Below are positions 14,771 through 32,000 of a DNA stretch of 32,000 nt, in pieces. Origin of the DNA: Candidatus Scalindua sp. (GTDB taxonomy: Bacteria; Planctomycetota; Brocadiia; Brocadiales; Scalinduaceae); the NCBI GenBank assembly GCA_031316235.1, contig JALDRA010000001.1, positions 3,090,001-3,122,000 on the forward strand. The letters run 5' to 3'. Made by a program: the position numbers and the translations under genes. Position 1 is the first letter of the stretch, and each line of letters starts with the position of its first letter. Below the pieces are notes generated by a model. That model saw only the letters and a list, made by a program, of their open reading frames with translations, was not told where the DNA came from and did no database searches.

Positions 14771-15466
14771 TCAATCATCAAGTGTCGGGTAAAGTTTAGA
14801 TAATCTTATCCTGGCATCAATCGTAGTAAACTGCCAGTTAGCCTTTGATTTCTTATTGTTTCTAAATTTCTGCCATGACTGTACTTCTTTTTTTATCTTT
14901 GTAATATTATCAATCCGCCTGTTTAAACACTGTCCAGCAAGTACATTCAACTCGATTTCTGCCATATTTAACCAGCTACCATGCTTTGGGGTGTAGACAA
15001 ACTCAAATTTATCTAAAATTTCCTTTGCTTTATCCGGCACAAACGTTTCATACAACGATCCAGCATCATGAGTATTCAAGTTGTCCATTACTAATGTTAT
15101 TTTGTTCGCATGACCATATGTATTAACAACGTCTTCCAGAAAATAGGACCAATCTTGTTTAGTTCTTCTTTCTGTTATTTTTACTATACGTTTCCCGGCC
15201 AATGGTTCAAAGGCCAGAAAAATATTACACACTCCACAACGCTTATATTCATAGTCATACTTAGCCGGTTGCCCTGGTGAAGCAGAAATTGGCATCTTTG
15301 TCTCTGATATAAGTTGCTTTGGTGACTCGTCCATACATATTACTGGATACTTAGCGTCATATGGACGTTTGTATACATCCAGCACCATTTCCATGTTAGC
15401 GACAAAACTGCCGTTTTCTTTTGGCGGTATTACCCAACCTTTTCGTTGCCAGGGCTTAATTTCGTT
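14771..15466 (-). CDS. IS630-family transposase, DDE catalytic part (orfB frame, -1 relative to orfA)
   Basis: The frame is open upstream of the listed ATG 15394 and reads KKNEIKPWQRKGWVIPP across the A8 run, a family-typical motif. DDE-type residues sit in ICMDES, VMDNLNTH and SWLNMAEIE. The stop codon lies inside the left terminal inverted repeat. Confidence 0.85.
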   Translation of the reverse strand, partial: NEIKPWQRKGWVIPPKENGSFVANMEMVLDVYKRPYDAKYPVICMDESPKQLISETKMPISASPGQPAKYDYEYKRCGVCNIFLAFEPLAGKRIVKITERRTKQDWSYFLEDVVNTYGHANKITLVMDNLNTHDAGSLYETFVPDKAKEILDKFEFVYTPKHGSWLNMAEIELNVLAGQCLNRRIDNITKIKKEVQSWQKFRNNKKSKANWQFTTIDARIRLSKLYPTLDD

Positions 15467-15903
15467 TTTTTTAATATACGGCGTATTGTTTCGTGGGAAA
15501 TTTTGTCAGTATATTCAAGTTCTACTACCTTGTCTGCTAATAATCGCAGAGACCATCTTGCAAAACCTTCTGGCGGCTCGCTACAACTTAACGCTACCAG
15601 GTGGGCTTCAAAGTCACCATCTGTCTTCTTTTCATATACTCGATTGCCTTTGCGTCCATTAAGCGCAACTTCAAAACCTTCTTCAACAAATCTTTTCTTT
15701 ACCCGGTCAATTTTCTTCATGCTTATTTTAAGAACACGGGCAATTTCAACGTTGGTCGAACGTTTGCCCTGATACTCACCCTGGTCGCAAGCTAATAATA
15801 GTAATGCATTGAGTATCTTTTGGGATCTATGCATCCCTTTAGACGTTAAAGCAACAAGCCTGTTACGTTCATCGCAATCAAGAGTTACTATGTATTTCTT
15901 CAT
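15430..15903 (-). CDS. IS630-family transposase, N-terminal HTH part (orfA)
   Basis: 157-aa ORF with HTH-like segments (RSTNVEIARVLKISMKKIDRVKKRF). It ends shortly after an A8 run. Confidence 0.85.
   Translation of the reverse strand: MKKYIVTLDCDERNRLVALTSKGMHRSQKILNALLLLACDQGEYQGKRSTNVEIARVLKISMKKIDRVKKRFVEEGFEVALNGRKGNRVYEKKTDGDFEAHLVALSCSEPPEGFARWSLRLLADKVVELEYTDKISHETIRRILKKTKLSPGNEKVG
15465..15472 (-). promoter_or_regulatory. A AAA AAA slippery site for a -1 frameshift joining orfA and orfB
   Basis: Plus-strand T8 equals minus-strand A8. In the orfA frame it reads TT-A AAA AAA-CG, the X XXY YYZ phasing. A -1 slip gives ..RRILKK-NEIKPW.. and a ~377-aa fusion protein. Confidence 0.6.
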
Positions 15904-16473
15904 AATCTAAATCTCCCGAAAAAAATTTAATTATGAAGATATTATAATCTATTATATACGACAATTCTAGCTTGACGTGACACTAGATGCCAAAACTATG
16001 CAGTCATTTTTTTCGTGGCGTGGTGACCGGTTTCATCCGGACAATAAAAGGAGTTACAATCCGCTTCATAAAATGGCTGCCTCTATTGCAATGTCACATC
16101 ATGAAAGATGGGACGGTAAAGGATACCCTGAAGGTCTGTCAGGAACTGAGATACCCCTTGAGTCCCGAATAGCTGCAATAGCAGATGTATACGATGCTCT
16201 GAGTTCTGTACGTCCATATAAGGAGGCTTTACCGGAAAGCAAGGTAATTGAGATTATGGAGAGTGAGCGGAGCAACCATTTTGATCCTGATGTGTATAAG
16301 GCATTTGAGGAGTCTTTTGATAAATTTAGAATAATTCGGGCAGAATTTGCCGATAATAATCATGAATCAGTTATTCATCAATAGTTTTGAGACCAGAATA
16401 ATCATTGATTCCTCTTTTTAATGGCATTTTCCTGGGTACGGAATAAATTTTCTTGTAATGAAAGCTATATGAA

Positions 16474-17775
16474 ATGAGAAGAATTCTCTTTGTAGATGAT
16501 GAACCGGAGATCCTTCAGGAATTTAAGCGAATGCTTCAACCCATGAGCCGGGAATGGGGTATGTCATTTGCCATTGGTGGAGAAGAAGCGCTGGATTTTA
16601 TGTCAAAGTCTGATTTTGATGTTGTTGTATCTGATATGCGTATGCCGAAAATGGATGGGCTGGAACTCCTTAATGAGGTTATGGAGAGATATCCCGATGT
16701 TGTACGCATTGTCCTTTCAGAGGATTCTGATAGAGACGTATTGTTACAATCTGTTAAATGTTCACATCAGCATTTGAAGAAACCGTGCAATATAGATACG
16801 GTCAAATATGTCATAACGCGGACATGCAAACTTAAGGATTTGTTGCAGAATGAGGCATTGAGAAAAATAGTGACAGGGATAAAGAAGTTGCCGAGTCTCC
16901 CGGCTTTGTACGGAATGATTGTTAAAGAGATGCAGTCTCCTGACGCATCTATTAAAAAAGTTGGCTATATTATTTCTCAAGATGTTTCAATGTCGGCAAA
17001 GATTTTACAGGTTGTTAATTCTGCCTACTTTGGTCTTCCACGGAAAATTTCTGATCCGCAGCAGGCATCGGTATATTTGGGTATAGAGACGTTAAAGGCT
17101 CTCGTCCTCTCCGTTCATGTGTTTTCATCATTTGCTGAAGATACAAAATTGTATGGAGTTTCCTTGAGAGAGATATTGGGACACTGCCTGCTGGTGGGGA
17201 GGCTGGCAAAGGAGATTGCACGCAGTGAAAAGGCGGAAACAAATATATTGGAAGAGGCATTGATAGCGGGAGTGCTGCACGATATAGGAAAGTTGATTTT
17301 GTTACAGCTTCCTGATCAGAACAGACAGGTAGAGGAACTGATCGAAACAACTGGTGTGAGTTCTGTAGAGTTGGAATATGAGGTCATGAAGAGCTCTCAT
17401 GCTGAACTGGGGGCATATTTATTAGGACTGTGGGGGCTCCCTGATAGTATCATTGAAATAGTGGCATTTCATCACAATCCATCAAAACTGCTGGAGGGTA
17501 TGTTTACAGAGACAGGTCTCTCGTGTGAAGATGAAGGAATTGTCAGGTCTGGCAAAGGGCATCCCGTCACACAATCTTCCGGAAAATATTTAATAGAATT
17601 CACCACACTGACTGCAGTACATGTCGCAAATGCCTTCTTGACTCAGAAGGAGATTACTCGAGAAACAACTGTCTTTTCACACATTGACCAACGGTATTTA
17701 AAAACGCTTAATTTGAAAGACAGGTTGCCTGTATGGTTAGAGCAGTATCACAAAATAATGCGGGAACAGATCTAA
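16474..17775 (+). CDS. Response regulator with REC + HDOD output domain
   Basis: REC (MRRILFVDDEPEIL..VVSDMRMPKMDG) followed by HDOD motifs (LPSLPALY, VNSAYFGLPRKI, LGIETLKALVL, GVLHDIGKLILL). Confidence 0.88.
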   Translation: MRRILFVDDEPEILQEFKRMLQPMSREWGMSFAIGGEEALDFMSKSDFDVVVSDMRMPKMDGLELLNEVMERYPDVVRIVLSEDSDRDVLLQSVKCSHQHLKKPCNIDTVKYVITRTCKLKDLLQNEALRKIVTGIKKLPSLPALYGMIVKEMQSPDASIKKVGYIISQDVSMSAKILQVVNSAYFGLPRKISDPQQASVYLGIETLKALVLSVHVFSSFAEDTKLYGVSLREILGHCLLVGRLAKEIARSEKAETNILEEALIAGVLHDIGKLILLQLPDQNRQVEELIETTGVSSVELEYEVMKSSHAELGAYLLGLWGLPDSIIEIVAFHHNPSKLLEGMFTETGLSCEDEGIVRSGKGHPVTQSSGKYLIEFTTLTAVHVANAFLTQKEITRETTVFSHIDQRYLKTLNLKDRLPVWLEQYHKIMREQI

Positions 17776-17788
17776 GAATTTGCACAAC

Positions 17789-17901
17789 TATACTCATCTC
17801 ATATTGGTTTTCTGATAAAATCCGAGATAAAATTGAGCGAGTATACCAGCAACCAAGATTTGGTTTCCGGTAAAACCGAAAACCAAATCGGTTTTAGTAT
17901 A
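17789..17901 (-). repeat. Structured ~112-bp intergenic repeat, copy B (inverted orientation)
   Basis: Its reverse complement matches copy C over the full length. The 33-nt main hairpin is identical. Confidence 0.9.
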
Positions 17902-18107
17902 TTCAATCACTTGAGTATGCTTCACCGTGAAATCTGAAATCATGACTTGATTGGCAAATTATCACGGAAAGCCATTTCATAATTACCAGTTATAGTAAAT
18001 TGAAAATCAGCGGCATGGATCGGTTAAGATCTCAAATTGTAATTTTTAAACAAATGTTTTTTTATTGAATATCTGGCAATGATCATTATCTTGAAAGGTT
18101 TTATGGT

Positions 18108-19412
18108 ATGAGAAGGATTCTCTTTGTAGATGATGAGGCGAATGTACTTCAAGGGTTAAAAAGAATGCTGCGTAAAATGCGCTACGAATGGGATACAGAG
18201 TATGTAAGCAGTGGAAAAGAAGCGCTGGATTGCATGGCCAAATCTCCATTTGATGTTGTTGTTTCAGATATGAGGATGCCGAGAATGGATGGTGTGGAAC
18301 TCCTTGGTACTGTTATGGAGCAATATCCGGAAACTGTCCGCATCATACTTTCTGGTCATTCTGATAAAGGGATGATAATGAAGACCGTAAAGTGTACGCA
18401 TCAGTTTTTAGTAAAGCCCTGTGATGCTGAAACTGTCAGGTACACCATAGAACGTGCCTGTAAACTTCAGGACCTTCTCAGAGATGAGAAACTGAAAAAG
18501 ATAGTAGCTGGCATAAAGGACTTGCCCAGTCTGCCCTCATTATACGGGATGATTGTCAAGGAGATGCAATCACCTGATGCTTCTATCAGGAAAGTAGGAG
18601 AAATTATCTCTCAGGATGTCTCAATGTCAGCAAAGGTCTTGCAGATTGTTAATTCAGCCTACTTCGGCCTTCCCAGGAAGTTAACAGACCCGCAACAGGC
18701 CGCAGTTTATTTAGGTATAGAAACCTTAAAGGCACTTGTACTTTCTATTCATGTTTTTTCTTCTTTTACAAAAGAGGCCGAGTTATTTGGGTTATCGTTT
18801 ACTCAAATGTGGAGACATAGTTTGATGGTAGCCAGGCTTGCAAAGGAGATTGCACGAGCTGAAAAGGTGGAGACGAAGGCTTTAGAGGAAGCATTTATTT
18901 CCGGGATATTGCATGACATAGGGAAATTAATTTTATTGAAGGTTCCTGGTCAATACAGGAAGATGAAGGATTTTGTTGAAATCACTGGGGGGAGTTCCCT
19001 GGAAGCCGAACAAGCTGTTTTGAAAACATCTCACGCGGAATTAGGAGCTTATTTATTAGGGCTCTGGGGGTTACCTGATCGCATCATTGAAACAATAGCC
19101 TTTCATCATGAACCCTCAAAGTTGATTGAAAATATATTCGTCAAATTAAACAAAGCATCTGATAATGGCGGGGAGAAGAGCGCTCCTGACGAGGGCCTGG
19201 TAAATTTGAAATCGATTAAAAACTATTCAACCGAATTTGCCACAATGTTATCCGTGCATGTGGCAAATGCATTGATGATGCAGGGGAAATGCACCCCGGA
19301 AACTACTGTTTTTCCCAACCTTGATATGTTATTTATCAGGACACTCAAATTATCAGACAAGTTACCCGAGTGGGTTTCACGTTATAACGATATAGTGAAG
19401 GAAGAGGAATAA
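18108..19412 (+). CDS. Response regulator with REC + HDOD output domain, tandem paralog of 16474..17775
   Basis: Same architecture and length (434 vs 433 aa). About two-thirds of residues are identical by eye, with many synonymous nucleotide differences. Confidence 0.88.
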   Translation: MRRILFVDDEANVLQGLKRMLRKMRYEWDTEYVSSGKEALDCMAKSPFDVVVSDMRMPRMDGVELLGTVMEQYPETVRIILSGHSDKGMIMKTVKCTHQFLVKPCDAETVRYTIERACKLQDLLRDEKLKKIVAGIKDLPSLPSLYGMIVKEMQSPDASIRKVGEIISQDVSMSAKVLQIVNSAYFGLPRKLTDPQQAAVYLGIETLKALVLSIHVFSSFTKEAELFGLSFTQMWRHSLMVARLAKEIARAEKVETKALEEAFISGILHDIGKLILLKVPGQYRKMKDFVEITGGSSLEAEQAVLKTSHAELGAYLLGLWGLPDRIIETIAFHHEPSKLIENIFVKLNKASDNGGEKSAPDEGLVNLKSIKNYSTEFATMLSVHVANALMMQGKCTPETTVFPNLDMLFIRTLKLSDKLPEWVSRYNDIVKEEE

Positions 19413-19415
19413 GCA

Positions 19416-22250
19416 ATGTTTAAGATCAGAGATAAAATGCTGGTTGCTTTTCTTCCGGTCTTAATTGTACCCATGTGTATTGTTGTCGCGCTGTTTTGCT
19501 TCTATACAATAAGTTATATGAAAGAGAACAGGGAAGACGAGATAACTCAGCAGACAAGAAAAAAAAAAGATAAAGTGATGCAGCATCTCTGTTCTGGAGA
19601 GAAAGACGTTCTTCTGCTGAGTAAGAATAGAGCCATTTTTAACTTAACAGATGCTGTTGACAGGAAAGATATTGAGCACATAGATTATTGCAGGACGGTA
19701 GTAGAAGATCTCTTTAAAGATTTTTTCGAAAGTAACAGGAACTATTGCCAGATACGGTATATTGATGAATCAGGTATGGAAATCGTTCGAGTTGAAATGG
19801 ATTCAATTGCTCCTCCTGGGAGACTTCAGGACAAAAGTCAGAGCTATTATGTACAGGAGATGTTGAAGCTGAAAGATGGAGATGTCTATGTTTCAGAACT
19901 TGACTTAAACAGGGAGCGGGGAATTATTGAAACACCTCACAGGCCAATGATAAGATATGCGGCTCCCGTCTTCAACAGTTCAGGCCGGGGGAGAGGGGGA
20001 GTTGTCCTGAACTCCAGGGCAGATTCTCAACTCTTTCCTGCATTAAAACAGGAATTCCATGAGAAGTCGGATACATTTTTGATTGATAGAGACGGTTCTT
20101 ATCTTATCCACCCTGATGGGGCAAAATGTTGGGGTGGCCAGTCTGATCTGAATACCAATGAGAACCTGAAAAATGATTTTTCCCCGGAGATATCGTCCCT
20201 TCTTCTGTCAGGGGAATCGGGAGATGTCCTGGTTAATGATCAGTATTACAGCTATATGCCGATTTCTTTTGATCAGTCAGATATCGGGAGATTTTGGGTA
20301 TTGGCTGTGAGTCTTCCAAAAGCTGCTCTCTATTCACCTGTCTATATTTCATGTATTCAGCTCGGGACTTCCGTATTACTTATGCTCGCCGTTGTTATCA
20401 CAGCGTTCTTTTTATTGTCCCGGAGAGTAACAAAACCCTTAAATGAGCTAGTCAAAGGCGTTATAAAATTAACAGAAACAGATTCAGACTTTCATATCCC
20501 TATTACGTCGAATGATGAGATTGCTTTTTTATGTTTTTCGTTTAACAAGGTCTTATATAAGTTAGGCAAGGCGAACAACCAGTTACAGGATTACGCAGAG
20601 CACCTGGAGAAAAAAATTGAAATAAAAACTGAGGAGATCTTTGGTAAGGCCAGGCAGCAAAAACTTGTAGCTGAGATTGGAAAATTACTCTGGTCCAATA
20701 TGAATCTTGAAGTCACAATGCACAGGGTGGTTAAGCTTGTTGCCAAGACCTTACGTATGGAATTCTGCAACATACTTCTGCTGGATAAATCACAGCCGGT
20801 TTTTACTATGGCGAGTGGTGTTGGAGGGGAAGACGGACTCGATGGCCACACCCAGGTCAGTGCTGGAGTGGAGACTCATGCCGGTTATACCCTGAAAGAA
20901 CAAAAACCGGTCGTAGTGAGGGATTTAAGAACGGAAACACGTTTTTCCGATTCACCACTTCTCAGAGAACGTGGGGTTGTTTCAGGCCTCAGTGTTGCCA
21001 TGGTAGTAAAAGGGAAAGCAATAGGTGTGGTAGTGGGCTATACAAAAAAAGAGAGGGTTTTTTCTAAATCTGATATTAATTTCCTGGAATCAGTAGGTCA
21101 AATTATGGCAGCAGCCATCGATCGGAAGAATGCTGAATATGAGATTGTCAGGAGAAAAGAATTTACTGATAAGTTAATAGAAACAGCACAGGATGCAATC
21201 GTTTGTATTGATGAAAATGGAATTATTACTATCTGGAACAAAGCAGCCGAAGTGATTTTCGGGTATTCACATGAAGAGATTATCGGACAGCAAATATTGA
21301 CTATTATTCCTGAAAAATATAAGGAAGATCATAAAAAAGGGCTGAAACTGTTTCTTGAGACCAATGAAACAAGAATTACTGGTAAAACGGTTGAAGTTGA
21401 CGGGAGAAAAAAGAATGGGGAAGAGATACCGATTGACGTGTCTCTTTCCTATCAGAAGGTGGATAACGGGAAATATATATTTACCGCTATAATACGTGAT
21501 ATATCATTCCAGAAAGAGGTAAAAAGGAGATTGCGTGAGAATGCAAGAAGTTTAAAGAAGGTGAACAGGGAATTAGGTGATTTTGTCTATATTGTTTCAC
21601 ATGATTTAAAAGAACCTCTGTTTGCAATTGACGGATACGTTTCGAGATTGTCAAAGATTTGTGGTGATTCACTTGATGAAAGAGGTAAACGCTATATTGA
21701 TAGAATTAAGGTGAATACGAAGGTAATGTCTAACAGGATTCACGAGCTTCTGGAAGTCATTAAGGTAGGGATGGTTGTATATAATTTCGCTGATCACAAG
21801 AGTAAAATTATTGTTGATACTATTGCCCACGAACTGGAAAGCCTTTTAGATAGAGAAAGAATTGAACTCTTCATCCAGGATGACCTGCCTACTGTTTTCT
21901 GTGACCCGAAAAGACTGAAGGATGTATTTTGGAATTTACTTACAAATGCAATCAAATTTATGGGTGAAAATGATACTCGGAAGATTAAGATCGGGTGTGA
22001 AAGAGAAAATGGCCACTACAAGTTCTTTGTCGAGGATAGCGGCATTGGGATAAAAGAGGAGTACCAGAAACAGATCTTTAAAATATTCAGGCGGCTAAAG
22101 GACATAGATGCGGAAGGAACCGGTATCGGTCTGGCAATAGTAAAAAAAATTATCGGCCTTCACCACGGAAAATTGTGGGTGGAAAGTCCGATTCATGACG
22201 GAAGGGGAGCAAAATTCTGTTTCACAATACCAACAGCTAATGAGTACTGA
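19416..22250 (+). CDS. Multidomain membrane sensor histidine kinase (periplasmic sensor - HAMP - GAF - PAS - HisKA - HATPase)
   Basis: Two TM helices flank a ~280-aa extracytoplasmic domain. HAMP-like RRVTKPLNELVKGV, a GAF-like region, PAS (AQDAIVCIDENGIITIWNKAAEVIFGY), H-box VSHDLKEPL, G-box EGTGIGLAIVKKI. The start is 4 nt after the upstream stop. Confidence 0.88.
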   Translation: MFKIRDKMLVAFLPVLIVPMCIVVALFCFYTISYMKENREDEITQQTRKKKDKVMQHLCSGEKDVLLLSKNRAIFNLTDAVDRKDIEHIDYCRTVVEDLFKDFFESNRNYCQIRYIDESGMEIVRVEMDSIAPPGRLQDKSQSYYVQEMLKLKDGDVYVSELDLNRERGIIETPHRPMIRYAAPVFNSSGRGRGGVVLNSRADSQLFPALKQEFHEKSDTFLIDRDGSYLIHPDGAKCWGGQSDLNTNENLKNDFSPEISSLLLSGESGDVLVNDQYYSYMPISFDQSDIGRFWVLAVSLPKAALYSPVYISCIQLGTSVLLMLAVVITAFFLLSRRVTKPLNELVKGVIKLTETDSDFHIPITSNDEIAFLCFSFNKVLYKLGKANNQLQDYAEHLEKKIEIKTEEIFGKARQQKLVAEIGKLLWSNMNLEVTMHRVVKLVAKTLRMEFCNILLLDKSQPVFTMASGVGGEDGLDGHTQVSAGVETHAGYTLKEQKPVVVRDLRTETRFSDSPLLRERGVVSGLSVAMVVKGKAIGVVVGYTKKERVFSKSDINFLESVGQIMAAAIDRKNAEYEIVRRKEFTDKLIETAQDAIVCIDENGIITIWNKAAEVIFGYSHEEIIGQQILTIIPEKYKEDHKKGLKLFLETNETRITGKTVEVDGRKKNGEEIPIDVSLSYQKVDNGKYIFTAIIRDISFQKEVKRRLRENARSLKKVNRELGDFVYIVSHDLKEPLFAIDGYVSRLSKICGDSLDERGKRYIDRIKVNTKVMSNRIHELLEVIKVGMVVYNFADHKSKIIVDTIAHELESLLDRERIELFIQDDLPTVFCDPKRLKDVFWNLLTNAIKFMGENDTRKIKIGCERENGHYKFFVEDSGIGIKEEYQKQIFKIFRRLKDIDAEGTGIGLAIVKKIIGLHHGKLWVESPIHDGRGAKFCFTIPTANEY

Positions 22251-22318
22251 TAGTCATTTCAAATGGATAGAGAAGGAAATGGGCGAATATATTGAAACAC
22301 TATGCAGGTTTGGTGGAT

Positions 22319-23182
22319 ATGCTGAAGGAAACCAAGAAAAAAGTCGTCCTCATAGAAGATGATTCTGATCATGCTGAGTTAATTGTTGATGTACTTCATG
22401 ATGAGGACGTCCACAATGAAATAGTATTATTAAAAGATGGACAAAAGGCAGTCAACTATTTTCAGAATAGAGGAGACAGTGAGAACCGTTTGCTATCTTC
22501 GCAAATTGATTTAGTGTTATTAGATATCAATCTGCCTAAGGTTCAAGGTTTGAATGTTCTCAAATTAATTAAGAGTCTGCCGGAGTTTGGTTCAGTGCCG
22601 ATAGTGGTTTTGACAACGAGTTCAGATTCTCATACAATTGAAAGAGTCTACAGGTATGGGGCGAACGGTTATGTAACGAAACCGATTTCTTATGATGATT
22701 TTGTAGAGAAAATAAGGATGCTGAAAGAGTATTGGTTGAATACTGAGAAATTGTTGTCACAGAAGAAAGCAAAGAAAGGAAGAGTTCTTCTTGCTGATGA
22801 TGATGAGATCTTCCTGCGGGTGACTTCTGCATTGCTTCGCCGTGAGGGGTATGAATGTGTTTGCGCAACCGATGCGGAGACCGTCATGGAGAATCTGAAA
22901 TCATGTTATTACGATCTTTTGATCTCTGACATCTACATGCCTGGGAACGAGGAATTAGAGCTTATTAAATATCTTCAAGGTGTTGGAGATGTTATACCCG
23001 CAATACTGGCGTCAGGGAATCCATCGATACACTCTTCGATTCAATCAATACAATATCCGGTTCTCGCTTATATGTTCAAACCATTTGCCTTTGACAAATT
23101 CCTGGCCCAGGTGAAAATATCAGTTGAAAGATATAGAGGAAGGGGTGAGAAAACAAAAAGAGAGAAACCTGTTGTTCTTTAA
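22319..23182 (+). CDS. Tandem double-receiver (REC-REC) protein without an output domain
   Basis: REC1: KKVVLIEDD..VLLDINLP..YVTKP. REC2: RVLLADDD..LLISDIYMPG..MFKP. The start is uncertain (TTG 22292 or ATG 22319). Confidence 0.8.
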   Translation: MLKETKKKVVLIEDDSDHAELIVDVLHDEDVHNEIVLLKDGQKAVNYFQNRGDSENRLLSSQIDLVLLDINLPKVQGLNVLKLIKSLPEFGSVPIVVLTTSSDSHTIERVYRYGANGYVTKPISYDDFVEKIRMLKEYWLNTEKLLSQKKAKKGRVLLADDDEIFLRVTSALLRREGYECVCATDAETVMENLKSCYYDLLISDIYMPGNEELELIKYLQGVGDVIPAILASGNPSIHSSIQSIQYPVLAYMFKPFAFDKFLAQVKISVERYRGRGEKTKREKPVVL

Positions 23183-25983: not shown

Positions 25984-28395
25984 TTATTTCGTTATCCATC
26001 TGAAGTACCTGATCTTAATCGGATCGAGAGAGCGGTCAACAATTGCTAAAATTTTTCTTTCAGAGAAGATGTCGGTTTCTGAATCATTGGTAACCTGAGC
26101 AGTAACATAGACCGTAAAGACGTTGGAACGTGTCGTAATGAGATTTGAGATGGACCGGAATCTCTTTTCCCTGTCCCACTTATTGCCGGTACCGGTAATT
26201 TGAGTAATATCAGCAACGAAATCACCTATGCCCGTAAATGGTTTGTCTGCGCTGCTTTCAATTGCACTGGCTATGGTGGAATCTATATTTGGGAGCGATT
26301 GCAACACCTCCGAGGGCGCGGTATTGACATTTATCAAACCGGGAATACGATACTCTTTCCCGTTTATATCACCACTCTGTGAACCGGTATCCGATGAATC
26401 ACTGTCACCATCTCCATCATTATCAATACCGTCCATTGATGGATCTGTAATGGTAAGGTATTCCAGTACGCTCGGATAGGTAATAAATTGATCAACGTTA
26501 AAACTCTGCCACTGCCTTCCGGTATGGATAAAGCCCAGATACCCTTTATTTGAAAATATCCTGTTCGCTGCAGGAAAACTCAATGGCCAGGTCGGTGTGG
26601 TATTTTCCCAGCCATCACCGCCAACAGCAGGATCAAAACTACCATTTTCCTCACCTGCTGTTTCCAGTGATGTCGTCCAGCGCCACGGTATTGATGCATT
26701 TACGTTGGGTGTTCCATCTGTGTCTGTTAATGGTGTTGGCCTTGGATCATTTAACTGTCTCGTGTTCGTGGTATTATCAGCCTGACCGTAATGTGTCTTC
26801 TGAACAGTGCCACTTGTATCTGCCAAGGTTAAAACTTCACCTGCGGGTGTGAGCAAATTAATATTGAGGTCAGTTTGATCTGGAGGAGTTCCGCCTTCAT
26901 AAGCAAAAGTTGCATATGCAGCTGAATCATCTGCAATAACATAGTAGTCTTGAGCATTAATCGTTCCATTCAGTGTAACAGCAGGCATGGATGTGCCCGT
27001 AATTGTCCAGTTTGTTATGTCAATAGCCGTATCGTATGGGTTAAATAATTCGATAAATTTACCCAAGCCACCTGCTGTAACAACGTTTACTTCTGCCTCT
27101 ACCTCGTTTATGTATGGAGTTCTTTCAATACCGTAGTATGTATCTGTGCCATCAGAATATAGAGTTACAACAGTGTCAGAATCAATGAAATCCTTTGTGT
27201 TGACTGCCAGCTGATGACGTTCAACATAACCTGATGTACCTGACGACCCGGTTATGCCCCCTGATTCCAGCATGTCTGTGATCATCTCTACTTTTTTATC
27301 TGAATTGTACGTAACCGTATCGGTGTATGCACCTTCATTTGTTATAAGGAAATTCATGTTTAACATGGTTGTAGCTGTCCCGCCGTCGAGTTGATACGGT
27401 GGCGTAACGATGGTGTCAGCAGAACAGGTCGTGAACCACTCATTGAGAGAAGCCTGGTCACTTTGTGAGACACCTCTACTGTTGCAAATTGTTTCGAGTC
27501 TGCTTGTGAATGTTGAGGTACCCATGATTTCAGCTTCTGAAAGGAGACTGAACGGTCTATCATCACCAGGTGGATAAATCGGATTGAATTCGGTTGGTTC
27601 ATCCACAGCTTCATCTGCTTCATCAACATTGGTTTCACCTGAATCCGGTATTCCATTATTGTTGGTGTCGTGTACTGCGGAATTCCAATCTCCATCGTTA
27701 TCAACACCATCTGTCTGAGGATCAGGAGTTATCCCGGAATTGTCATTTACGGTACTGGTTCCCGGCTTCAGGTCGCTTCCTTGTCTTGTACCGATAATGT
27801 CGCTCGTTATAGCCGTGGCGGTACCACTTACCTGTAAGATCACGCTGGATAGATCAATCTCAAATGTAGACCATCCTTCATCAGAGGTGTGCGCATTGCC
27901 GATTCCAGCCTTGTTCCCTGTGACATTTATATTAATCCGGGCCTCTCTGTCATCCGTTATTAATATGGCATATCTGCCACGCAGTTTTCCTGGAAGTCTG
28001 ACGTCGTTTGTCGATACGGTGGCCGGAAAGTATATCCATTTCGAGTCGTTTGTGCCGTCTCCATCGTTATCATAATCTGTACCAGAGAAATCACTACCGC
28101 CGGGCATCCAGGTTTCGCCTGACCAGTCATAGTTTTCATCACCGTTATCGCTGTTATATGCAATATCGTCGTCTCCAAATTTATCTTGCCGGAGGATATA
28201 CAATGCATGTTCGAGGCCTGCTCTTGCAGCAGCCTCACATTTTATCGAGTCAGAGTAATTTCTCGTTGCCTTGGTTTCTATTCTTGACAGGGTGGCAAAG
28301 GTAATCGCCATCAGTGAAAGGATGGTAAAAACTCCAACGATAATGATCAGGATATATCCTTCCTCATTTTTTACGTATCCAACAGTTTTTTCCAT
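25984..28395 (-). CDS. Giant GspK-like minor pseudopilin (803 aa) with an inserted lamin-tail domain and acidic DNDGDG repeats
   Basis: N-terminal hydrophobic helix without Glu at +5 (EEG/YILIIIVGV). GspK-type motifs RYAILITDDREARININ and C-terminal LINVNTAPSEVLQSLPNI (helix-hairpin-helix). LTD-like segment YINEVEAE..KFIELFNPYDTAIDITNWTI..YYVIA..EVLTLADTSGTVQ (about nt 26785-27117). Three DNDGD motifs. Confidence 0.8.
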   Translation of the reverse strand: MEKTVGYVKNEEGYILIIIVGVFTILSLMAITFATLSRIETKATRNYSDSIKCEAAARAGLEHALYILRQDKFGDDDIAYNSDNGDENYDWSGETWMPGGSDFSGTDYDNDGDGTNDSKWIYFPATVSTNDVRLPGKLRGRYAILITDDREARININVTGNKAGIGNAHTSDEGWSTFEIDLSSVILQVSGTATAITSDIIGTRQGSDLKPGTSTVNDNSGITPDPQTDGVDNDGDWNSAVHDTNNNGIPDSGETNVDEADEAVDEPTEFNPIYPPGDDRPFSLLSEAEIMGTSTFTSRLETICNSRGVSQSDQASLNEWFTTCSADTIVTPPYQLDGGTATTMLNMNFLITNEGAYTDTVTYNSDKKVEMITDMLESGGITGSSGTSGYVERHQLAVNTKDFIDSDTVVTLYSDGTDTYYGIERTPYINEVEAEVNVVTAGGLGKFIELFNPYDTAIDITNWTITGTSMPAVTLNGTINAQDYYVIADDSAAYATFAYEGGTPPDQTDLNINLLTPAGEVLTLADTSGTVQKTHYGQADNTTNTRQLNDPRPTPLTDTDGTPNVNASIPWRWTTSLETAGEENGSFDPAVGGDGWENTTPTWPLSFPAANRIFSNKGYLGFIHTGRQWQSFNVDQFITYPSVLEYLTITDPSMDGIDNDGDGDSDSSDTGSQSGDINGKEYRIPGLINVNTAPSEVLQSLPNIDSTIASAIESSADKPFTGIGDFVADITQITGTGNKWDREKRFRSISNLITTRSNVFTVYVTAQVTNDSETDIFSERKILAIVDRSLDPIKIRYFRWITK

Positions 28396-28401
28396 GTTTC
28401 G

Positions 28402-29064
28402 TTACGGTATCGAATGTATCCTTGTAAATATCCTTGAGTACCTGTTGCGCATGTCAGAGATGGTTATGGTTACTTCTACAGCAGCAGGTAAATATCTTTT
28501 CGTGGTACTGTCCCATGAGTTTTTCCATGATCCATCAGTGTCGAGGTACTTAAATTGCAATGTATCAACATTGAATCCAAGCTCGAAACCCGTTGCCGTA
28601 TCAGGATCAAAACCTGACATATCAGTATTAAGTGTACTCTCAAGAGTAATCTCTGCTTTGTTCAGGATATTGCCGGTGGTCAGGAAATAGGTAATTAAGG
28701 CAATGGGTTTCCCCTCATGATTGGGAGTACTTGATAGGAGAGTGAGTATGTCGCTGCCCCCTTTTGCACTGATCGCAAGGTAGTCATTTGGATCAATATT
28801 GTCAGATGATTTGAACAATCCATAATTTGCATTTAAGGTTGAACCGGAAAGGTCTCTTTTCATGATGTCAAAAACCGATCTGGCGTTTTGATATACCTCG
28901 TTGCACGCATCAGATTCTGAGAAGACGGTGCTTGCCTGATTAAACAGCGTTACCGTAATGAGGATAATTATTGAAGCTAAAGATACCGCTACAATCAGTT
29001 CTACCAGTGTGAAGGCGGAATCTTTTAAATGATACTTTTTCTCTGGTGGAATTTCCTTATTCAT
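28402..29064 (-). CDS. Prepilin-type N-terminal domain protein, GspJ/PulJ-like minor pseudopilin
   Basis: SA/FTLVELIVAVSLASIIIL with Glu+5, then NARSVFDIMKRDLSGS (PulJ-like). It ends 6 nt before the K-like gene. The -1 residue is Ala, not Gly. Confidence 0.75.
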   Translation of the reverse strand: MNKEIPPEKKYHLKDSAFTLVELIVAVSLASIIILITVTLFNQASTVFSESDACNEVYQNARSVFDIMKRDLSGSTLNANYGLFKSSDNIDPNDYLAISAKGGSDILTLLSSTPNHEGKPIALITYFLTTGNILNKAEITLESTLNTDMSGFDPDTATGFELGFNVDTLQFKYLDTDGSWKNSWDSTTKRYLPAAVEVTITISDMRNRYSRIFTRIHSIP

Positions 29065-29219: not shown

Positions 29220-29924
29220 TTAATGTTTTGCCAGCATGGTTTCGTAGATGTCAATAATATCGTCTGTCGTGGTAAATGCAAGGCCTGCTCCAGAGGTTCC
29301 CGAAAATGGTCCTTCTAATATAATGGTTGAAGTGTCTGTGTCTATCGTATCTATTCTGGACCAGAAGGCTTCATTATCTTCCCGTATGTATTGTTTAGAA
29401 GTGAGTTGTGGTGGCAATGGTGTCGTATACGGTACATTTGTACTGCCTTGTGTGAAGTCAGCGGTTCCTGTTCCAAATTCAGATGGGGTAACGTTGAAAA
29501 ATATGGCAATTTGTGCCCTGATCAGGTTTGTGTCAGTAGTTTTGATGCTTTTTAAAACAGCCTGCCATGAATATTGAGCAAATACTCTGTTCCCGGAGGA
29601 GTCTTCAAAAAGTCTATCTTTATTTATATTGCTTATATCCGGATACGTATAAGCCTGGCCGGCAGTCATCGTTCCGACAATTCCAACAACATCAGCTGCT
29701 CTGAGTTCCGACAATGCTAATTCACTCAGGATAGAGGCATTGGAATGCCGGACTATCCTCTTTGTAGACTCAATTCCAATCGGAAATATAGCCAGGATAC
29801 CGGTAAACACCACACCAAGTATGAAAATGGCTATTCCAATTTCAATCAGGGTGAAACCTGATTGAGAGTGTTGAAGCCGTTCTGATTTTAGACGTATTGC
29901 TGAAATAGAAAATTTTCTTCTCAT
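29220..29924 (-). CDS. Prepilin-type N-terminal domain protein, GspI-like position (234 aa)
   Basis: QSG/FTLIEIGIAIFILGVV with Glu+5. 23-aa leader. Placed in the I slot of the G-H-I-J-K order. Confidence 0.7.
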   Translation of the reverse strand: MRRKFSISAIRLKSERLQHSQSGFTLIEIGIAIFILGVVFTGILAIFPIGIESTKRIVRHSNASILSELALSELRAADVVGIVGTMTAGQAYTYPDISNINKDRLFEDSSGNRVFAQYSWQAVLKSIKTTDTNLIRAQIAIFFNVTPSEFGTGTADFTQGSTNVPYTTPLPPQLTSKQYIREDNEAFWSRIDTIDTDTSTIILEGPFSGTSGAGLAFTTTDDIIDIYETMLAKH

Positions 29925-30070: not shown

Positions 30071-30544
30071 CTAATTACCTGAAATTTGCCCCGTATAGCT
30101 GATTATTCTCAGATTTTTTGAGTTTCCCTGCCTGTTTTTAATAGTAATCGTATCTGTACCAAAGGCCGAAAAGTCTGCAGAACCATTCGGATCAAAGTTA
30201 ACGGTGCTGGTTCCCGTAGTCCATGTCCCTGAACCCGTATCAAATTCTATACTATCTGGAAGGAACTCTTCTCTTCCTAATTCACTGTTATTTTCATCTT
30301 TGATTAACAGCCTGGAGTATGTTGAGTCGAAAACAAGCAGTCGTGTTTTTCTGGAATTAATAGCCATTGTTCTGGCAGCCAGGGCTCTTGCTTGAACGAT
30401 GCGTGCACCTTTACTCAAACTTTGCCCTTTCAGGAAAGGTGTTATTGCTGGCACGGTTATCACACCTACCAAAACAATGATTGCAATTACGACAAGCATT
30501 TCTACGAGTGTGAAACCGTATCTGGTATCTGTGAGTGATTTCAA
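30071..30544 (-). CDS. Prepilin-type N-terminal domain protein, GspH/FimT-like minor pseudopilin
   Basis: RYG/FTLVEMLVVIAIIVLVG, then SKGARIVQARALAARTMAI, typical of the GspH/FimT family. 157 aa. Confidence 0.75.
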   Translation of the reverse strand: MKSLTDTRYGFTLVEMLVVIAIIVLVGVITVPAITPFLKGQSLSKGARIVQARALAARTMAINSRKTRLLVFDSTYSRLLIKDENNSELGREEFLPDSIEFDTGSGTWTTGTSTVNFDPNGSADFSAFGTDTITIKNRQGNSKNLRIISYTGQISGN

Positions 30545-30880: not shown

Positions 30881-31327
30881 CTATCGATTCCAGTTGTTTA
30901 TGTCGTCAATATCACTTCCGGAAGTTGTCGATATACCGTCCGGGCCTGGAGAATACAGGTCGTATGAACCGGTATTCTGATTTCCAGGAGAAACATATAC
31001 GAGAGGGTTACCCCAATAATCAACAATCGTATCACCGCTTACTGTATCATCATGTAATTCGATATACTGTCTTAAGGCGGTACCGGATGGTTGCAGCAGA
31101 GACTTGAGATTTGCTATATCCCCGGAAGGATAGGATCTGTTATCACTGTAATAGTGTTCAATCGCCATTTCCAGGCGATCGATCATTGTTCTGGTGGCCT
31201 TTATCTGGGTGTTTTTACTCAAACGGGGAACCACCGTCAAAACGGATGCGGTAATTACGAGGATTATGCTGATAACTACCAGAAGTTCTGTCAGGGTAAA
31301 TCCATTTTTACCAGTTTGTAATGTCAT
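30881..31327 (-). CDS. GspG-like major pseudopilin
   Basis: MTLQTGKNG/FTLTELLVVISIIL, then DRLEMAIEHYYSDNRSYP and a C-terminal DYWGNPLVYVSPG..YDLYSPGPDG..DDINNW (GspG calcium-loop signature). ATG 31327 is preferred over GTG 31336. Confidence 0.85.
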   Translation of the reverse strand: MTLQTGKNGFTLTELLVVISIILVITASVLTVVPRLSKNTQIKATRTMIDRLEMAIEHYYSDNRSYPSGDIANLKSLLQPSGTALRQYIELHDDTVSGDTIVDYWGNPLVYVSPGNQNTGSYDLYSPGPDGISTTSGSDIDDINNWNR

Positions 31328-31979
31328 CACTTGCACTGTTTCCTGAATCGTCTACCTTGTCAGGCCCGAATGAATATATATCAAACGAGGCGATATTGTG
31401 AGAAGGAGAGCTGCTTACGTATGAGTAATCACTGCCAAAAGGATCTTTATACTGGAAGACCTCTCTCGTTCCGTTGACTCCTTCTATACTGAGCGTTGCG
31501 GTATCTGAGGCAAAATCAGCACCCGATCCTTCAATCTGCGATCTCTTGAATTCTATATAGGGGCCGAATATCTCATTAAAACTCGTTGAATTGAACTTAA
31601 ACCTGCTGCCGAGAAAAAAGACAAGACATTTTGTGTCTGTATTGAGATCATCATCGCGAGGTATCTCTATACTGGCGAGAGAGATCATTGTATCTGCTGT
31701 TGTGTAGCTGTCGGGTGGAAAGAAACCAAAGTCACTCTCAAATTGCCTGAGTGCAAGCCCCAGCTGGCTTATCTGAGCAGCGGTAACGCCACTCTTTGCG
31801 TTGGTCTGGATAGAACTTACAACAGGTACGGTAATTCCAACAAGAACCATGATGATTACGAGAACAACTAACATCTCTACGAGCGTAAACCCGGTTGAAG
31901 AGTTCTTTTTTAACAGGGGGGAGGGAGGTACGGCAGGTTGTTCAGAACCCTGCGAGTCCATTAGTATCTCACTCGGCAT
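31308..31979 (-). CDS. GspG-like pseudopilin paralog with a long leader and central insertion
   Basis: STG/FTLVEMLVVLVIIMVLVG, LALRQFESDFGFFP, C-terminal FDIYSFGPDKVDD..DDITNW. The leader is 22-29 aa depending on start. The 3' end overlaps the next gene by about 20 nt. Confidence 0.8.
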   Translation of the reverse strand: MPSEILMDSQGSEQPAVPPSPLLKKNSSTGFTLVEMLVVLVIIMVLVGITVPVVSSIQTNAKSGVTAAQISQLGLALRQFESDFGFFPPDSYTTADTMISLASIEIPRDDDLNTDTKCLVFFLGSRFKFNSTSFNEIFGPYIEFKRSQIEGSGADFASDTATLSIEGVNGTREVFQYKDPFGSDYSYVSSSPSHNIASFDIYSFGPDKVDDSGNSASDDITNW

Positions 31980-32000
31980 CCTGTCACTAAAGTGTATCGA

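What the first reader, a model, noticed from the sequence alone, without database searches (positions are those of the whole stretch)
25984..28395. GspK-like tip pseudopilin expanded to 803 aa with a lamin-tail domain and three DNDGD acidic motifs
Canonical GspK proteins are about 330 aa. This one keeps the GspK hallmarks: an N-terminal helix lacking Glu+5, RYAILITDDREARININ, and a C-terminal INVNTAPSEVLQSLP helix-hairpin-helix.

It has also acquired large insertions:
- an LTD-like Ig-fold segment (residues about 427-537, nt about 26785-27117);
- three thrombospondin-type-3-like motifs (YDNDGDGT, DGVDNDGDW, DGIDNDGDGD);
- long T/S/D/G-rich stretches.

GspK caps the pseudopilus tip together with GspI and GspJ. 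These additions would therefore be displayed at the filament tip. That suggests an adhesive or ligand- or DNA/polymer-binding type IV filament rather than a classical T2SS piston.
Basis: partly seen in the sequence, partly recalled or inferred. Interest (0 to 1): 0.65.

Follow-up and report, generated by a model that had tools for sequence, protein, structure and literature searches.

The report
Giant pilus-tip protein with lamin-tail domain
This anammox bacterium (Candidatus Scalindua) encodes an 803-residue version of the protein that caps secretion and pilus filaments, carrying an extra lamin-tail Ig-like domain and acidic calcium-type loops; this enlarged cap turns out to be widespread but unstudied in Planctomycetota, Verrucomicrobiota and related phyla, and probably gives the filament tip a binding function.

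Summary
ORF 25984-28395 (- strand, 803 aa) is the last gene of an E-E-F-G-G-H-I-J-K type IV filament operon.

It keeps the GspK scaffold:
- a prepilin-type N-terminus without Glu+5;
- the strand motif RYAILITDDREARININ;
- a DFIDSD motif and the INVNTA helix-hairpin-helix;
- three C-terminal strands.

A lamin-tail domain passes Pfam's gathering score and matches lamin Ig-folds structurally. It sits in a loop of the GspK alpha-domain. Three DNDGD acidic loops are conserved and far beyond chance. No thrombospondin type 3 (TSP_3) profile match was found.

- The expansion is not a local acquisition. Giant K-like proteins of 594-1602 aa form a family of hundreds of clusters, and most carry the same LTD module. 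They occur in Brocadiales, Omnitrophota, Verrucomicrobiota and Pirellulales.
- Databases already name these orthologs "GspK/PulK" or "lamin tail domain-containing protein". No held paper describes them.
- DNA binding is unlikely: net charge is -69 and pI 4.1.

Tip display is inferred from topology, not modelled. Both ATPases carry MshE-type c-di-GMP motifs. A close relative also has PilZ and GGDEF genes next to the operon. This mildly favours a regulated adhesive filament over a plain secretion piston. No secretin lies nearby.

Verdict: a new variant of a known kind (a modular K-type tip pilin), of moderate interest.

The parts
25984..28395 (-). K-like cap minor pilin gene, 803 aa, last gene of the operon
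   Evidence: ORF. NCBIfam GspK E 3.7e-12. Foldseek hits to XcpX and GspK. More than 100 orthologs at 53-88% identity.
28177..28395 (-). Prepilin-type leader (residues 1-13, ending in G13) and long N-terminal helix alpha1 (residues 11-73); position +5 is Ile, not Glu
   Evidence: Sequence. DSSP helix 11-73 in the AF2 model. G13 and Y14 nearly invariant.
28042..28077 (-). Acidic loop 1 (residues 107-118, DYDNDGDGTNDS), between alpha1 and the first pilin strand
   Evidence: D109 and S118 invariant. DxDxD kept in 63/79 orthologs.
27925..27975 (-). Pilin beta-strand plus the 'D..R-I-N-I-N' motif (residues 141-157), matching canonical GspK 'lrDaq.cFNLNaL'
   Evidence: Strand E138-147. Motif conserved in orthologs and distant homologs. 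Canonical sequences.
27685..27711 (-). Acidic loop 2 (residues 229-237, DGVDNDGDW), in a low-confidence segment that most distant homologs lack
   Evidence: 77/79 orthologs keep DxDxD; 10 of 13 distant homologs have a gap here.
27115..27366 (-). First part of the GspK-type alpha-domain (residues 344-427: MLNMNFL, helices, DFIDSD...YYGIERTPY)
   Evidence: hhalign to canonical GspK. D402, D405 and G422 invariant. T2SSK_1st hits at the same place in distant homologs.
26656..27114 (-). Lamin-tail domain (Ig-like beta-sandwich, residues 428-580) inserted into an alpha-domain loop
   Evidence: Pfam LTD 37.9 bits, above the gathering score. pLDDT mostly 81-95. Foldseek lamin Ig-fold, probability 1.00.
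26356..26433 (-). Acidic loop 3 (residues 655-680, DGIDNDGDGDSDSSD...), fits DxDxDGxxDxxD, immediately before the HhH
   Evidence: DxDxD in 79/79 orthologs and 10/13 distant homologs. D658, D660, D662 and D669 nearly invariant.
26131..26349 (-). Second alpha-domain part with the INVNTA helix-hairpin-helix (residues 683-755)
   Evidence: Pfam T2SSK E 0.0028 and HHH_3 E 0.035. NCBIfam GspK stretch 687-770. N689, N691 and A693 invariant.
25987..26130 (-). Three C-terminal pilin beta-strands (residues 756-803), including the conserved terminal strand IKIRYFRWITK
   Evidence: E759-770, E776-787 and E794-802. R796, Y797, F798, R799 and W800 nearly invariant. Role of GspK's C-terminal strand: PMC13533445.
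28402..29064 (-). J-like minor pilin (220 aa, Glu+5 present); its stop lies 6 nt before the K start
   Evidence: Pfam T2SSJ E 1.3e-6, above the gathering score. Verru_Chthon C E 2.9e-16. Weak EpsJ match.
29220..29924 (-). Pilin in the 'I' position (234 aa, GFTLIE N-terminus); GspI identity not shown
   Evidence: N_methyl only. Only N-terminal helix matches in the PDB. Syntenic in Scalindua and Brocadiaceae.
30071..30544 (-). H-like minor pilin (157 aa)
   Evidence: Pfam GspH E 3.3e-5, above the gathering score.
30881..31336 (-). G-like pilin 2 (151 aa), candidate major subunit
   Evidence: Pfam T2SSG E 2.4e-15; NCBIfam GspG E 1.3e-17.
31308..32000 (-). G-like pilin 1, cut by the window edge. 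The gene as called on contig L082 encodes 283 aa; its leader is unusually long and the true start is not established
   Evidence: L082 overlaps the window exactly and continues into GspF and two GspE/PilB ATPases.

Best explanation
The gene encodes the cap (K-type) minor pilin of a type IV filament machine. The operon runs two GspE/PilB-type ATPases, GspF, two G-like pilins, then H, I, J and K.

Shown:
- The protein has the GspK scaffold: a prepilin N-terminus without Glu+5, which is the mark of the most apical subunit, and a pilin sheet split by a large inserted domain. It ends in a conserved C-terminal strand of the kind GspK supplies in cis to license I-J-K tip assembly.
- A bona fide lamin-tail Ig-like domain and three conserved DxDxDG-type acidic loops sit inside that inserted domain.

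Inferred:
- The insertion host is the alpha-domain, which crowns the pseudopilus in solved GspK and XcpX complexes. The LTD and the calcium-type loops are therefore displayed at the filament tip.
- There they make the cap itself the ligand-binding or adhesive module, with no PilY1-type adhesin encoded. The logic resembles CpaL of Tad pili and the 'modular pilins'.
- The likely ligand is a surface, polysaccharide or cation-bridged matrix component rather than naked DNA, given the extreme acidity.
- Filament assembly is probably gated by c-di-GMP, because both ATPases carry the MshE-type binding motif.
For: Scaffold:
- NCBIfam GspK E 3.7e-12 in two stretches.
- Foldseek XcpX 5vtm_X and 9a1f_T, and GspK 3ci0_K, probability 0.87-1.00.
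- Model topology: alpha1 11-73, strands 121-123 and 138-147, about 610 inserted residues, then strands 759-802; pLDDT 76.9, pTM 0.78.
- Motif correspondence to K-12, ETEC and XcpX GspK.

LTD: Pfam above its gathering score; lamin Ig-fold is the top Foldseek hit.

Operon:
- H and J pass their Pfam gathering scores and G-like genes are present.
- J and K are 6 nt apart.
- E-E-F lie upstream in the same organism and in relatives.
- No PilY1-type gene appears in the operon gene lists.

Further support:
- C-terminal strand conserved; its role is described in PMC13533445.
- Canonical GspK binds 2-3 Ca2+ (PMC6211770).
- Acidic loops are conserved and non-random.
- c-di-GMP: NF053729 is above its cutoff in both ATPases, 59.1 and 45.5 bits against 38. 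A PilZ protein and a GGDEF response regulator lie directly upstream in an 86%-identical relative.
- Conservation of the LTD-in-K architecture across phyla argues for function.
- Modular pilin precedent: PMC8179133.
Against: - All GspK profile scores are below curated cutoffs: Pfam 18.4 against 24.2, NCBIfam 46 against 130.
- The profile-to-PDB sequence search gave GspK only E 0.39. hhalign probability was only 23%.
- Tip location rests on topology. No complex model or coordinates were available.
- The role of bacterial LTDs is unknown (PMC6085458), so 'adhesin' is a guess.
- No secretin, PilM/N/O, GspC/L/M or prepilin peptidase was found within about 20 kb upstream or 10 kb downstream in Scalindua. 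Whether the filament reaches the cell surface is therefore unshown.
- The MshEN motif also occurs in T2SS ATPases, so c-di-GMP control does not exclude secretion.
- There are no expression or localisation data.
Confidence: 0.55

Rival explanations
1. It is the tip pseudopilin of a true type II secretion system. The enlarged cap (LTD plus acidic loops) is a lineage-specific elaboration that contacts secreted substrates or the secretin gate. The pseudopilus stays periplasmic and works as a piston.
For: - Gene order E-F-G-H-I-J-K is the T2SS order.
- F scores best as GspF, 371 bits.
- G, H and J match T2SS Pfam families.
- K supplies its own C-terminal strand, as T2SS GspK does.
- No PilT-type retraction ATPase is in the operon.
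- Verrucomicrobial relatives have a secretin in the same cluster.
Against: - No GspC, D, L or M within reach in Scalindua.
- There are two ATPases, scoring PilB 608 and GspE 587 bits, both below equivalog cutoffs.
- The verrucomicrobial cluster has PilM_2, a T4P-type component.
- PilZ, GGDEF and extra large modular pilins lie next to the operon.
- A cap of about 800-1600 aa is hard to fit in a periplasmic piston under a secretin (inference).
Confidence: 0.3
2. It caps a DNA-uptake (competence-type) or eDNA-binding filament. The HhH motifs and the LTD bind DNA at the tip.
For: - The INVNTA HhH resembles ComEA, PsbU and EEPD1 HhH motifs.
- ComEA family hits appear in relatives.
- LTDs accompany extracellular nucleases and have been proposed to bind DNA (PMC4486849 and PMC6085458).
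- ComZ is a precedent for a DNA-binding insertion in a minor pilin (PMC8179133).
Against: - The HhH-like subdomains are a generic feature of every GspK alpha-domain.
- The protein has net charge -69 and pI 4.1; the LTD is at -14 and the HhH region at -1.
- No ComEA, ComEC or DprA genes in the neighbourhood.
- The LTD was dispensable for extracellular DNA degradation by ExeM in vivo, although its deletion slowed the purified enzyme in vitro.
Confidence: 0.08
3. It is not a filament subunit at all. It is a membrane-anchored or secreted LTD protein whose N-terminal hydrophobic helix is just a signal anchor, and the resemblance to GspK is superficial.
For: All GspK family scores are below curated thresholds. 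Several databases name the orthologs only 'lamin tail domain-containing protein' or 'hypothetical'.
Against: - Conserved position directly after the H-I-J pilins, with a 6-nt J-K spacing, in dozens of genomes.
- Both N- and C-terminal GspK segments match.
- Structural hits to three independent GspK/XcpX entries.
- Split pilin-sheet topology.
- Conserved G-1 and hydrophobic +1 to +20.
Confidence: 0.04

Closest known systems
GspK / XcpX, the T2SS tip minor pseudopilin (PDB 3CI0, 5VTM, 9A1F)
   Same: - Prepilin N-terminus lacking Glu+5.
- Pilin sheet interrupted by an inserted alpha-domain with two HhH-like parts.
- Motifs 'D...FNLN', 'DxIDxD...Y' and 'INxNTA'.
- Own C-terminal beta-strand.
- Last of a G-H-I-J-K gene series.
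- Calcium-binding precedent.
   Different: - 803 aa against about 327 aa.
- The alpha-domain carries an extra LTD beta-sandwich (about 150 aa), about 180 poorly ordered residues with an acidic loop, and a 28-residue acidic loop before the HhH.
- Profile scores are below family cutoffs.
- No GspC, D, L or M adjacent.
- Two ATPases carrying c-di-GMP motifs.
CpaL of the Caulobacter Tad pilus (PMC13533445)
   Same: A large (about 600 aa) minor-pilin-like tip protein. An adhesin-type middle region lies between an N-terminal pilin-like part and a C-terminal strand, which completes the protein's own sheet and licenses tip assembly.
   Different: A different filament class (Tad/T4c). No sequence relationship was shown here. 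CpaL's middle region is not an LTD within a GspK alpha-domain.
Modular pilins: S. sanguinis PilB (vWA) and PilC (lectin), T. thermophilus ComZ (beta-solenoid inserted in the sheet) (PMC8179133)
   Same: A generic, non-pilus functional domain is grafted onto, or inserted into, a minor pilin for display by the filament.
   Different: The module here is an LTD nested inside an already inserted alpha-domain. No paper held in the library pairs GspK with a lamin tail domain. The supplementary architecture list of PMC8179133 was not checked.
Verru_Chthon cassette protein A (NCBIfam TIGR02600, about 1300 aa) with cassette proteins C and D
   Same: Giant K-position proteins in pilin cassettes of PVC bacteria. 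Their N- and C-terminal ends match this family (E 2.2e-8 here, 1e-15 to 1e-16 in verrucomicrobial relatives). J-like matches cassette C (2.9e-16) and H-like matches cassette D.
   Different: Scores are far below the subfamily cutoff (32 against 332 bits) and only the termini align. The cassette family has no assigned function.
MSHA-type pili driven by the c-di-GMP-binding ATPase MshE
   Same: Both operon ATPases carry the MshE-related c-di-GMP-binding motif above the NCBIfam cutoff. PilZ and GGDEF genes are adjacent in a close relative.
   Different: No other Msh-specific components were identified. The motif also occurs in some T2SS ATPases (own knowledge: Wang et al. 2016, not verified here).

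Membership tests
GspK (T2SS minor pseudopilin K; Pfam PF03934/PF21687, NCBIfam NF037980) | Profile score above the curated family cutoff | tested here: not met
   Pfam T2SSK 18.4 bits against 24.2. T2SSK_1st not reported. NCBIfam 46.4 bits against 130, though E is 3.7e-12.
GspK (T2SS minor pseudopilin K; Pfam PF03934/PF21687, NCBIfam NF037980) | Prepilin-type N-terminus with no Glu at +5 | tested here: met
   ...EEG|YILII: +5 is Ile. The G, H, I and J proteins all have Glu+5. G13 and Y14 nearly invariant.
GspK (T2SS minor pseudopilin K; Pfam PF03934/PF21687, NCBIfam NF037980) | Pilin beta-sheet interrupted by an alpha-domain with HhH-like subdomains; fold similar to solved GspK | tested here: met
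   Model topology. Foldseek 5vtm_X probability 1.00 (E 5e-3), 9a1f_T 0.99, 3ci0_K 0.87. These are local alignments of about 120-196 columns with low TM, because the query is 803 aa.
GspK (T2SS minor pseudopilin K; Pfam PF03934/PF21687, NCBIfam NF037980) | Encoded after gspG-H-I-J and downstream of gspE-F | tested here: met
GspK (T2SS minor pseudopilin K; Pfam PF03934/PF21687, NCBIfam NF037980) | Part of a complete T2SS with GspC, D (secretin), L and M | tested here: inconclusive
   None found by phmmer with the E. coli proteins, or by Pfam, within about 20 kb upstream and 10 kb downstream in Scalindua. The whole genome was not searchable. GspC, L and M are too divergent for phmmer.
GspK (T2SS minor pseudopilin K; Pfam PF03934/PF21687, NCBIfam NF037980) | Forms the I-J-K tip complex and sits at the apex | not testable with these tools
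   No multimer prediction and no model coordinates were available. The 'I'-position protein shows only a generic pilin N-terminus.
Lamin tail domain (Pfam PF00932) | Profile score above the gathering score | tested here: met
   37.9 bits against 34.3, E 2.5e-9, residues 429-531. Precomputed LTD on nearly all orthologs.
Lamin tail domain (Pfam PF00932) | Ig-like beta-sandwich fold like the lamin A/C tail | tested here: met
   Foldseek 6rpr_B, 7yvd_C, 1ifr and 2lll: probability 1.00, target TM 0.54-0.67. pLDDT mostly 81-95.
Thrombospondin type 3 repeat (Pfam PF02412) | Profile match | tested here: not met
   No TSP_3 hit at E<=1.
Thrombospondin type 3 repeat (Pfam PF02412) | DxDxDGxxDxxD calcium-binding pattern | tested here: met
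   Site 3 fits fully: D658, D660, D662, G663, D666, D669. Site 1 fits DxDxDGxxD. Site 2 is DxDxD followed by W. Calcium binding itself was not tested.
Verru_Chthon cassette protein A (TIGR02600) | Score above the subfamily cutoff over the full length | tested here: not met
   32.5 bits against 332.3. Only residues 736-770 align.
Modular pilin (sensu Raynaud et al. 2021, PMC8179133) | Pilin module plus a domain not specific to pilus biology | tested here: met
   Prepilin N-terminus and pilin sheet plus Pfam LTD. Pfam N_methyl itself is not reported for K, as is usual for GspK.
T4aP PilX/PilK with a PilY1 adhesin | A PilY1/PilC-type protein supplies the C-terminal strand in trans | tested here: not met
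   No PilY1-type gene in the operon lists. K ends in its own conserved strand, 794-802.
MshE-type c-di-GMP-gated filament ATPase | MshEN c-di-GMP-binding motif | tested here: met
   NF053729 scores 59.1 and 45.5 bits against a cutoff of 38 in the two ATPases of the window's organism. A strict regex for the published 24-residue motif did not match. Binding was not tested.

The most novel reading that the evidence does not exclude
The LTD-bearing K cap defines a distinct, ancient class of type IV filament in PVC-type bacteria and allies (Planctomycetota including anammox bacteria, Verrucomicrobiota, Omnitrophota).

- The tip pilin is itself the calcium-dependent adhesin, with no PilY1.
- Assembly is gated by c-di-GMP.
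- In anammox bacteria this filament would mediate attachment and aggregation.
- It would also give bacterial lamin-tail domains a first defined role, as a filament-tip binding module.
Probability: 0.25. Interest if true: 0.65.

Novelty: new variant of a known kind. Interest (0 to 1): 0.42.

Why it matters
Tip proteins decide what a type IV filament touches. A conserved, giant K-type cap with an Ig-like lamin-tail domain and calcium-type loops occurs in hundreds of protein clusters from environmentally dominant but hard-to-culture phyla, including anammox bacteria, Omnitrophota and Verrucomicrobiota.

This points to an unstudied way of building a binding tip without a PilY1 adhesin. It also offers a concrete setting in which to work out what bacterial LTDs do.

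For anammox biology it is a candidate factor for cell aggregation and attachment, which matter in marine oxygen-minimum zones and in wastewater granules. However, this is an annotation-level insight into a known design principle (modular minor pilins), and not a new kind of system.

Tried and rejected
- Look-up of the window's first G-like ORF found nothing. The ORF is cut by the window edge; on L082 the gene is called as 283 aa.
- The window protein's own long contig was not retrievable, so I used L082 (identical overlap) and the relatives L002, L084 and L003.
- A profile of 92 homologs against PDB sequences gave only HhH-level hits (EEPD1, PsbU, ComEA), with GspK at E 0.39. Sequence alone does not tie it to solved GspK.
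- hhalign against K-12 GspK alone gave probability 1.2%. With a 3-sequence canonical alignment it gave E 9e-4 and probability 23%. I used this only for motif mapping.
- Pfam TSP_3: no hit.
A PDB profile search for it matched only the generic pilin helix, so its GspI identity rests on position alone.
- phmmer with E. coli GspC, L, M, O and HofM, N, O, P found nothing in any locus. These proteins are too divergent for this to count as evidence of absence.
- A strict regex for the published MshEN motif failed, but the NCBIfam domain model passed.
- The promoter and terminator scan was at or near shuffle expectation and uninformative.
- Literature searches for GspK plus 'lamin tail domain', and for Scalindua plus pseudopilin, pili or appendages, returned nothing.
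- van Niftrik et al. 2008 (PMC2223682) is not held. From memory it reports pilus-like appendages on Scalindua cells; I could not verify this.
- The DNA-binding reading was considered and down-weighted because of charge.
- A Scalindua-specific acquisition was rejected on distribution.


Full report
**Observation**

The window holds an ATG-initiated ORF at 25984..28395 on the - strand, encoding 803 aa.
- RYAILITDDREARININ, residues 141-157
- INVNTAPSEVLQSLP, residues 688-702
- YDNDGDGT, residues 108-115
- DGVDNDGDW, residues 229-237
- DGIDNDGDGD, residues 655-664

The N-terminus reads MEKTVGYVKNEEG|YILIIIVGVF.... It has a Gly at -1 and a hydrophobic stretch, and position +5 is Ile rather than Glu. 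The five upstream pilin-like ORFs all carry (G/A)FTL(V/I/T)E with Glu+5.

The composition is T 12.1%, D 9.7%, G 8.7%, S 8.1% and N 6.8%. An exact DNDGD appears in only 0.4% of shuffles of the sequence. Here there are three, and they are conserved. DxDxD is kept at site 3 in 79/79 orthologs, at site 2 in 77/79 and at site 1 in 63/79.

**What the protein is**

Family and structure evidence:
- Pfam reports the lamin tail domain above its gathering score: 37.9 against 34.3 bits, E 2.5e-9, residues 429-531.
- Pfam T2SSK is below threshold (E 0.0028, residues 688-728). No TSP_3 hit appears at E<=1.
- NCBIfam GspK matches at E 3.7e-12 in two stretches, but with 46 bits against a cutoff of 130.
- The ends of 'Verru_Chthon cassette protein A' also match.

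An AlphaFold2 model built from 92 homologs has pLDDT 76.9 and pTM 0.78. Its topology is:
- a long N-terminal helix (residues 11-73);
- two strands (121-123 and 138-147);
- an insertion of about 610 residues;
- three C-terminal strands (759-770, 776-787 and 794-802).

This is a pilin sheet split by a large insertion, which is the GspK design. Inside the insertion, residues 412-577 form a mostly confident beta-rich block. Foldseek against the PDB returns lamin A/C and B Ig-folds first (probability 1.00, target TM 0.54-0.67). It also returns XcpX (5vtm_X, probability 1.00), the XcpGHIJK filament model (9a1f_T) and ETEC GspK (3ci0_K, probability 0.87).

Sequence-only comparison with solved GspK is weak: E 0.39 and hhalign probability 23%. 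Homology therefore rests on the family profile, the fold, the motifs and the gene order taken together.

**Where the additions sit**

I aligned the family against K-12, ETEC and P. aeruginosa GspK. The correspondences, with K-12 GspK on the left, are:

| Canonical GspK | This protein |
|---|---|
| strand + 'RDAQHCFNLNAL' | 'ITDDREARININ' (residues 146-157) |
| 'IADYIDVDD...GAEDSFY...P' | 'KDFIDSD...TYYGIERTPY' (401-428; D402, D405 and G422 invariant) |
| 'SANQMLFLTGELRQIKG' | 'AANRIFSNKGYLGFIH' (609-624) |
| 'LP...SINLN' | 'DP...INVNTA' |

From this mapping:
- The LTD and its extension (about residues 428-605) are inserted in a single loop of the alpha-domain.
- Acidic loop 3 (655-680) is a 28-residue insertion just before the second HhH.
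- Loop 1 lies between alpha1 and the first strand.
- Loop 2 lies in a poorly ordered segment (161-343) that most distant homologs lack.

Distant homologs show the same order, T2SSK_1st then LTD then T2SSK/HHH_3, in Pfam. Canonical GspK binds two Ca2+ ions and XcpX three (PMC6211770). Extra DxDxDG loops are therefore a plausible elaboration of an existing property. Calcium binding here is inferred, not shown.

**Context**

The gene is the last in an operon. On the - strand the window holds, in order:
- a G-like gene (31308 to the window edge);
- a second G-like gene (30881-31336);
- an H-like gene (30071-30544);
- an 'I'-position pilin (29220-29924);
- a J-like gene (28402-29064, 6 nt before K);
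- the K gene itself.

Downstream is a convergent surE. A contig from the same organism overlaps the window exactly. It continues upstream into GspF and two 564/570-aa ATPases.

These ATPases score almost equally as PilB (608 and 605 bits) and GspE (587 and 600 bits), below both equivalog cutoffs. Both carry the MshE-related c-di-GMP-binding domain above its cutoff.

In an 86%-identical relative, the next genes upstream are:
- a GGDEF response regulator;
- a PilZ protein;
- three large prepilin-type proteins with FecR and MopE-like domains.

No secretin, PilM or GspC/L/M-like gene was found within about 20 kb upstream or 10 kb downstream in Scalindua. Verrucomicrobial relatives do have a PilM_2 fusion protein and a secretin about 1-7 kb downstream of their K-like gene.

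**Distribution**

The word-indexed search found more than 100 orthologs at 53-88% identity, 740-860 aa long, in Ca. Scalindua and Brocadiales. Nearly all have a precomputed LTD. Several are already named 'lamin tail domain-containing protein', 'General secretion pathway protein K' or 'PulK'.

Representative genomes from several phyla encode full-length relatives of 695-1140 aa. These are other Brocadiaceae, Omnitrophota, Ratteibacteria, Verrucomicrobiota, Auribacterota, Pirellulales and Phycisphaerae.

An exhaustive profile search gave 423 cluster representatives at E<=1e-30 and 4352 at E<=1e-10. I examined 147 of the 150 listed representatives:
- 109-116 have both the N- and C-terminal K scaffold, with lengths of 594-1602 aa.
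- 62 of the 109 (strict threshold) or 90 of the 116 (lenient threshold) have the LTD module between the two ends.

The enlarged, LTD-bearing cap is therefore the norm in these lineages, not an innovation of this genome.

**Mechanism**

Absence of Glu+5 marks the most apical subunit. A conserved terminal strand supplied in cis is what licenses I-J-K assembly in T2SS, Com and Tad systems (PMC13533445). The alpha-domain caps the tip in solved complexes.

I therefore infer that the LTD and acidic loops are presented at the filament apex. There they would act as the binding module of a PilY1-less filament, analogous to CpaL and to the modular pilins (PMC8179133).

The protein is extremely acidic: net -69 and pI 4.1, with the LTD at -14. 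That argues against direct DNA binding and for cation-mediated interactions. c-di-GMP features tilt the reading towards a regulated adhesive filament, but a T2SS with an elaborate cap remains a serious rival. The function of bacterial LTDs is unresolved (PMC6085458).

**Novelty and score**

No paper in the held library links GspK with a lamin tail domain, or describes pili genes of Scalindua. The design principle of a functional module inserted into a tip minor pilin is established, and databases already label these proteins. I rate it a new variant of a known kind, with moderate interest (0.42).

Noticed in passing
L084:1-7503 (86%-identical Scalinduaceae relative, upstream of the operon); also L003:48-1115 (S. 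japonica): Three large ORFs (more than 544, 892 and 634 aa) lie just upstream of the filament operon. Two of them (the 892-aa one has no N_methyl hit) combine a prepilin N-methylation motif with FecR and repeated Cu-binding_MopE-like domains. They may be further 'modular pilins' with metal-binding-type repeats that resemble the DNDGDG loops of the K protein.
   Followed up: partly
L084:7865-9684 and L082:94-3510 (continuation of the window beyond 32000): A PilZ (PilZNR+PilZ) protein and a response-regulator-GGDEF protein sit directly upstream of two tandem ATPases. Both ATPases carry an MshE-type c-di-GMP-binding domain above the NCBIfam cutoff, suggesting a c-di-GMP control module for the filament.
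   Followed up: partly
window 14028-16384: An IS630-like element (DDE_3 ORF 14771-15394 and HTH ORF 15430-15903, - strand) appears to split a response-regulator-HD gene. The REC domain plus the N-terminal HD half lies at 14028-14792, and the C-terminal HD_5 half at 15977-16384.
   Followed up: no
window 16474-19412: Two tandem paralogous response-regulator-HDOD genes (433 and 434 aa). They are followed by a Cache/HAMP/GAF/PAS histidine kinase (19416-22250) and a double-receiver protein (22292-23182), forming a dense signalling cluster next to the pilin operon.
   Followed up: no
window 11-1708 and 6877-8088: A multihaem cytochrome c (Multi-haem_cyto family) and a NapC/NirT-type tetrahaem/c3-type cytochrome. 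With tandem TPR proteins and an FGE-sulfatase-domain protein, they fit an anammox planctomycete.
   Followed up: no
L035:13914-22180 (Verrucomicrobiota relative); similar in L042, L043 and L051: Downstream of the giant K-like gene lie an 863-aa PilM_2-containing fusion protein, three ORFs without family hits, and a secretin of about 910 aa. In this phylum the K-like cap belongs to a cluster with T4P-type PilM and a secretin.
   Followed up: partly
window 31308-32000 / L082:5077-5928: The first G-like pilin is called with an unusually long leader, about 88 residues before the GFTLVE cleavage motif (283 aa in total). The true start codon may be internal.
   Followed up: no
L073 and L075 (MAGs labelled Actinomycetota/Actinomycetes): K-like proteins of 889-920 aa with the LTD module occur in bins labelled Actinomycetota. 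This could reflect mis-binning or a wider distribution.
   Followed up: no
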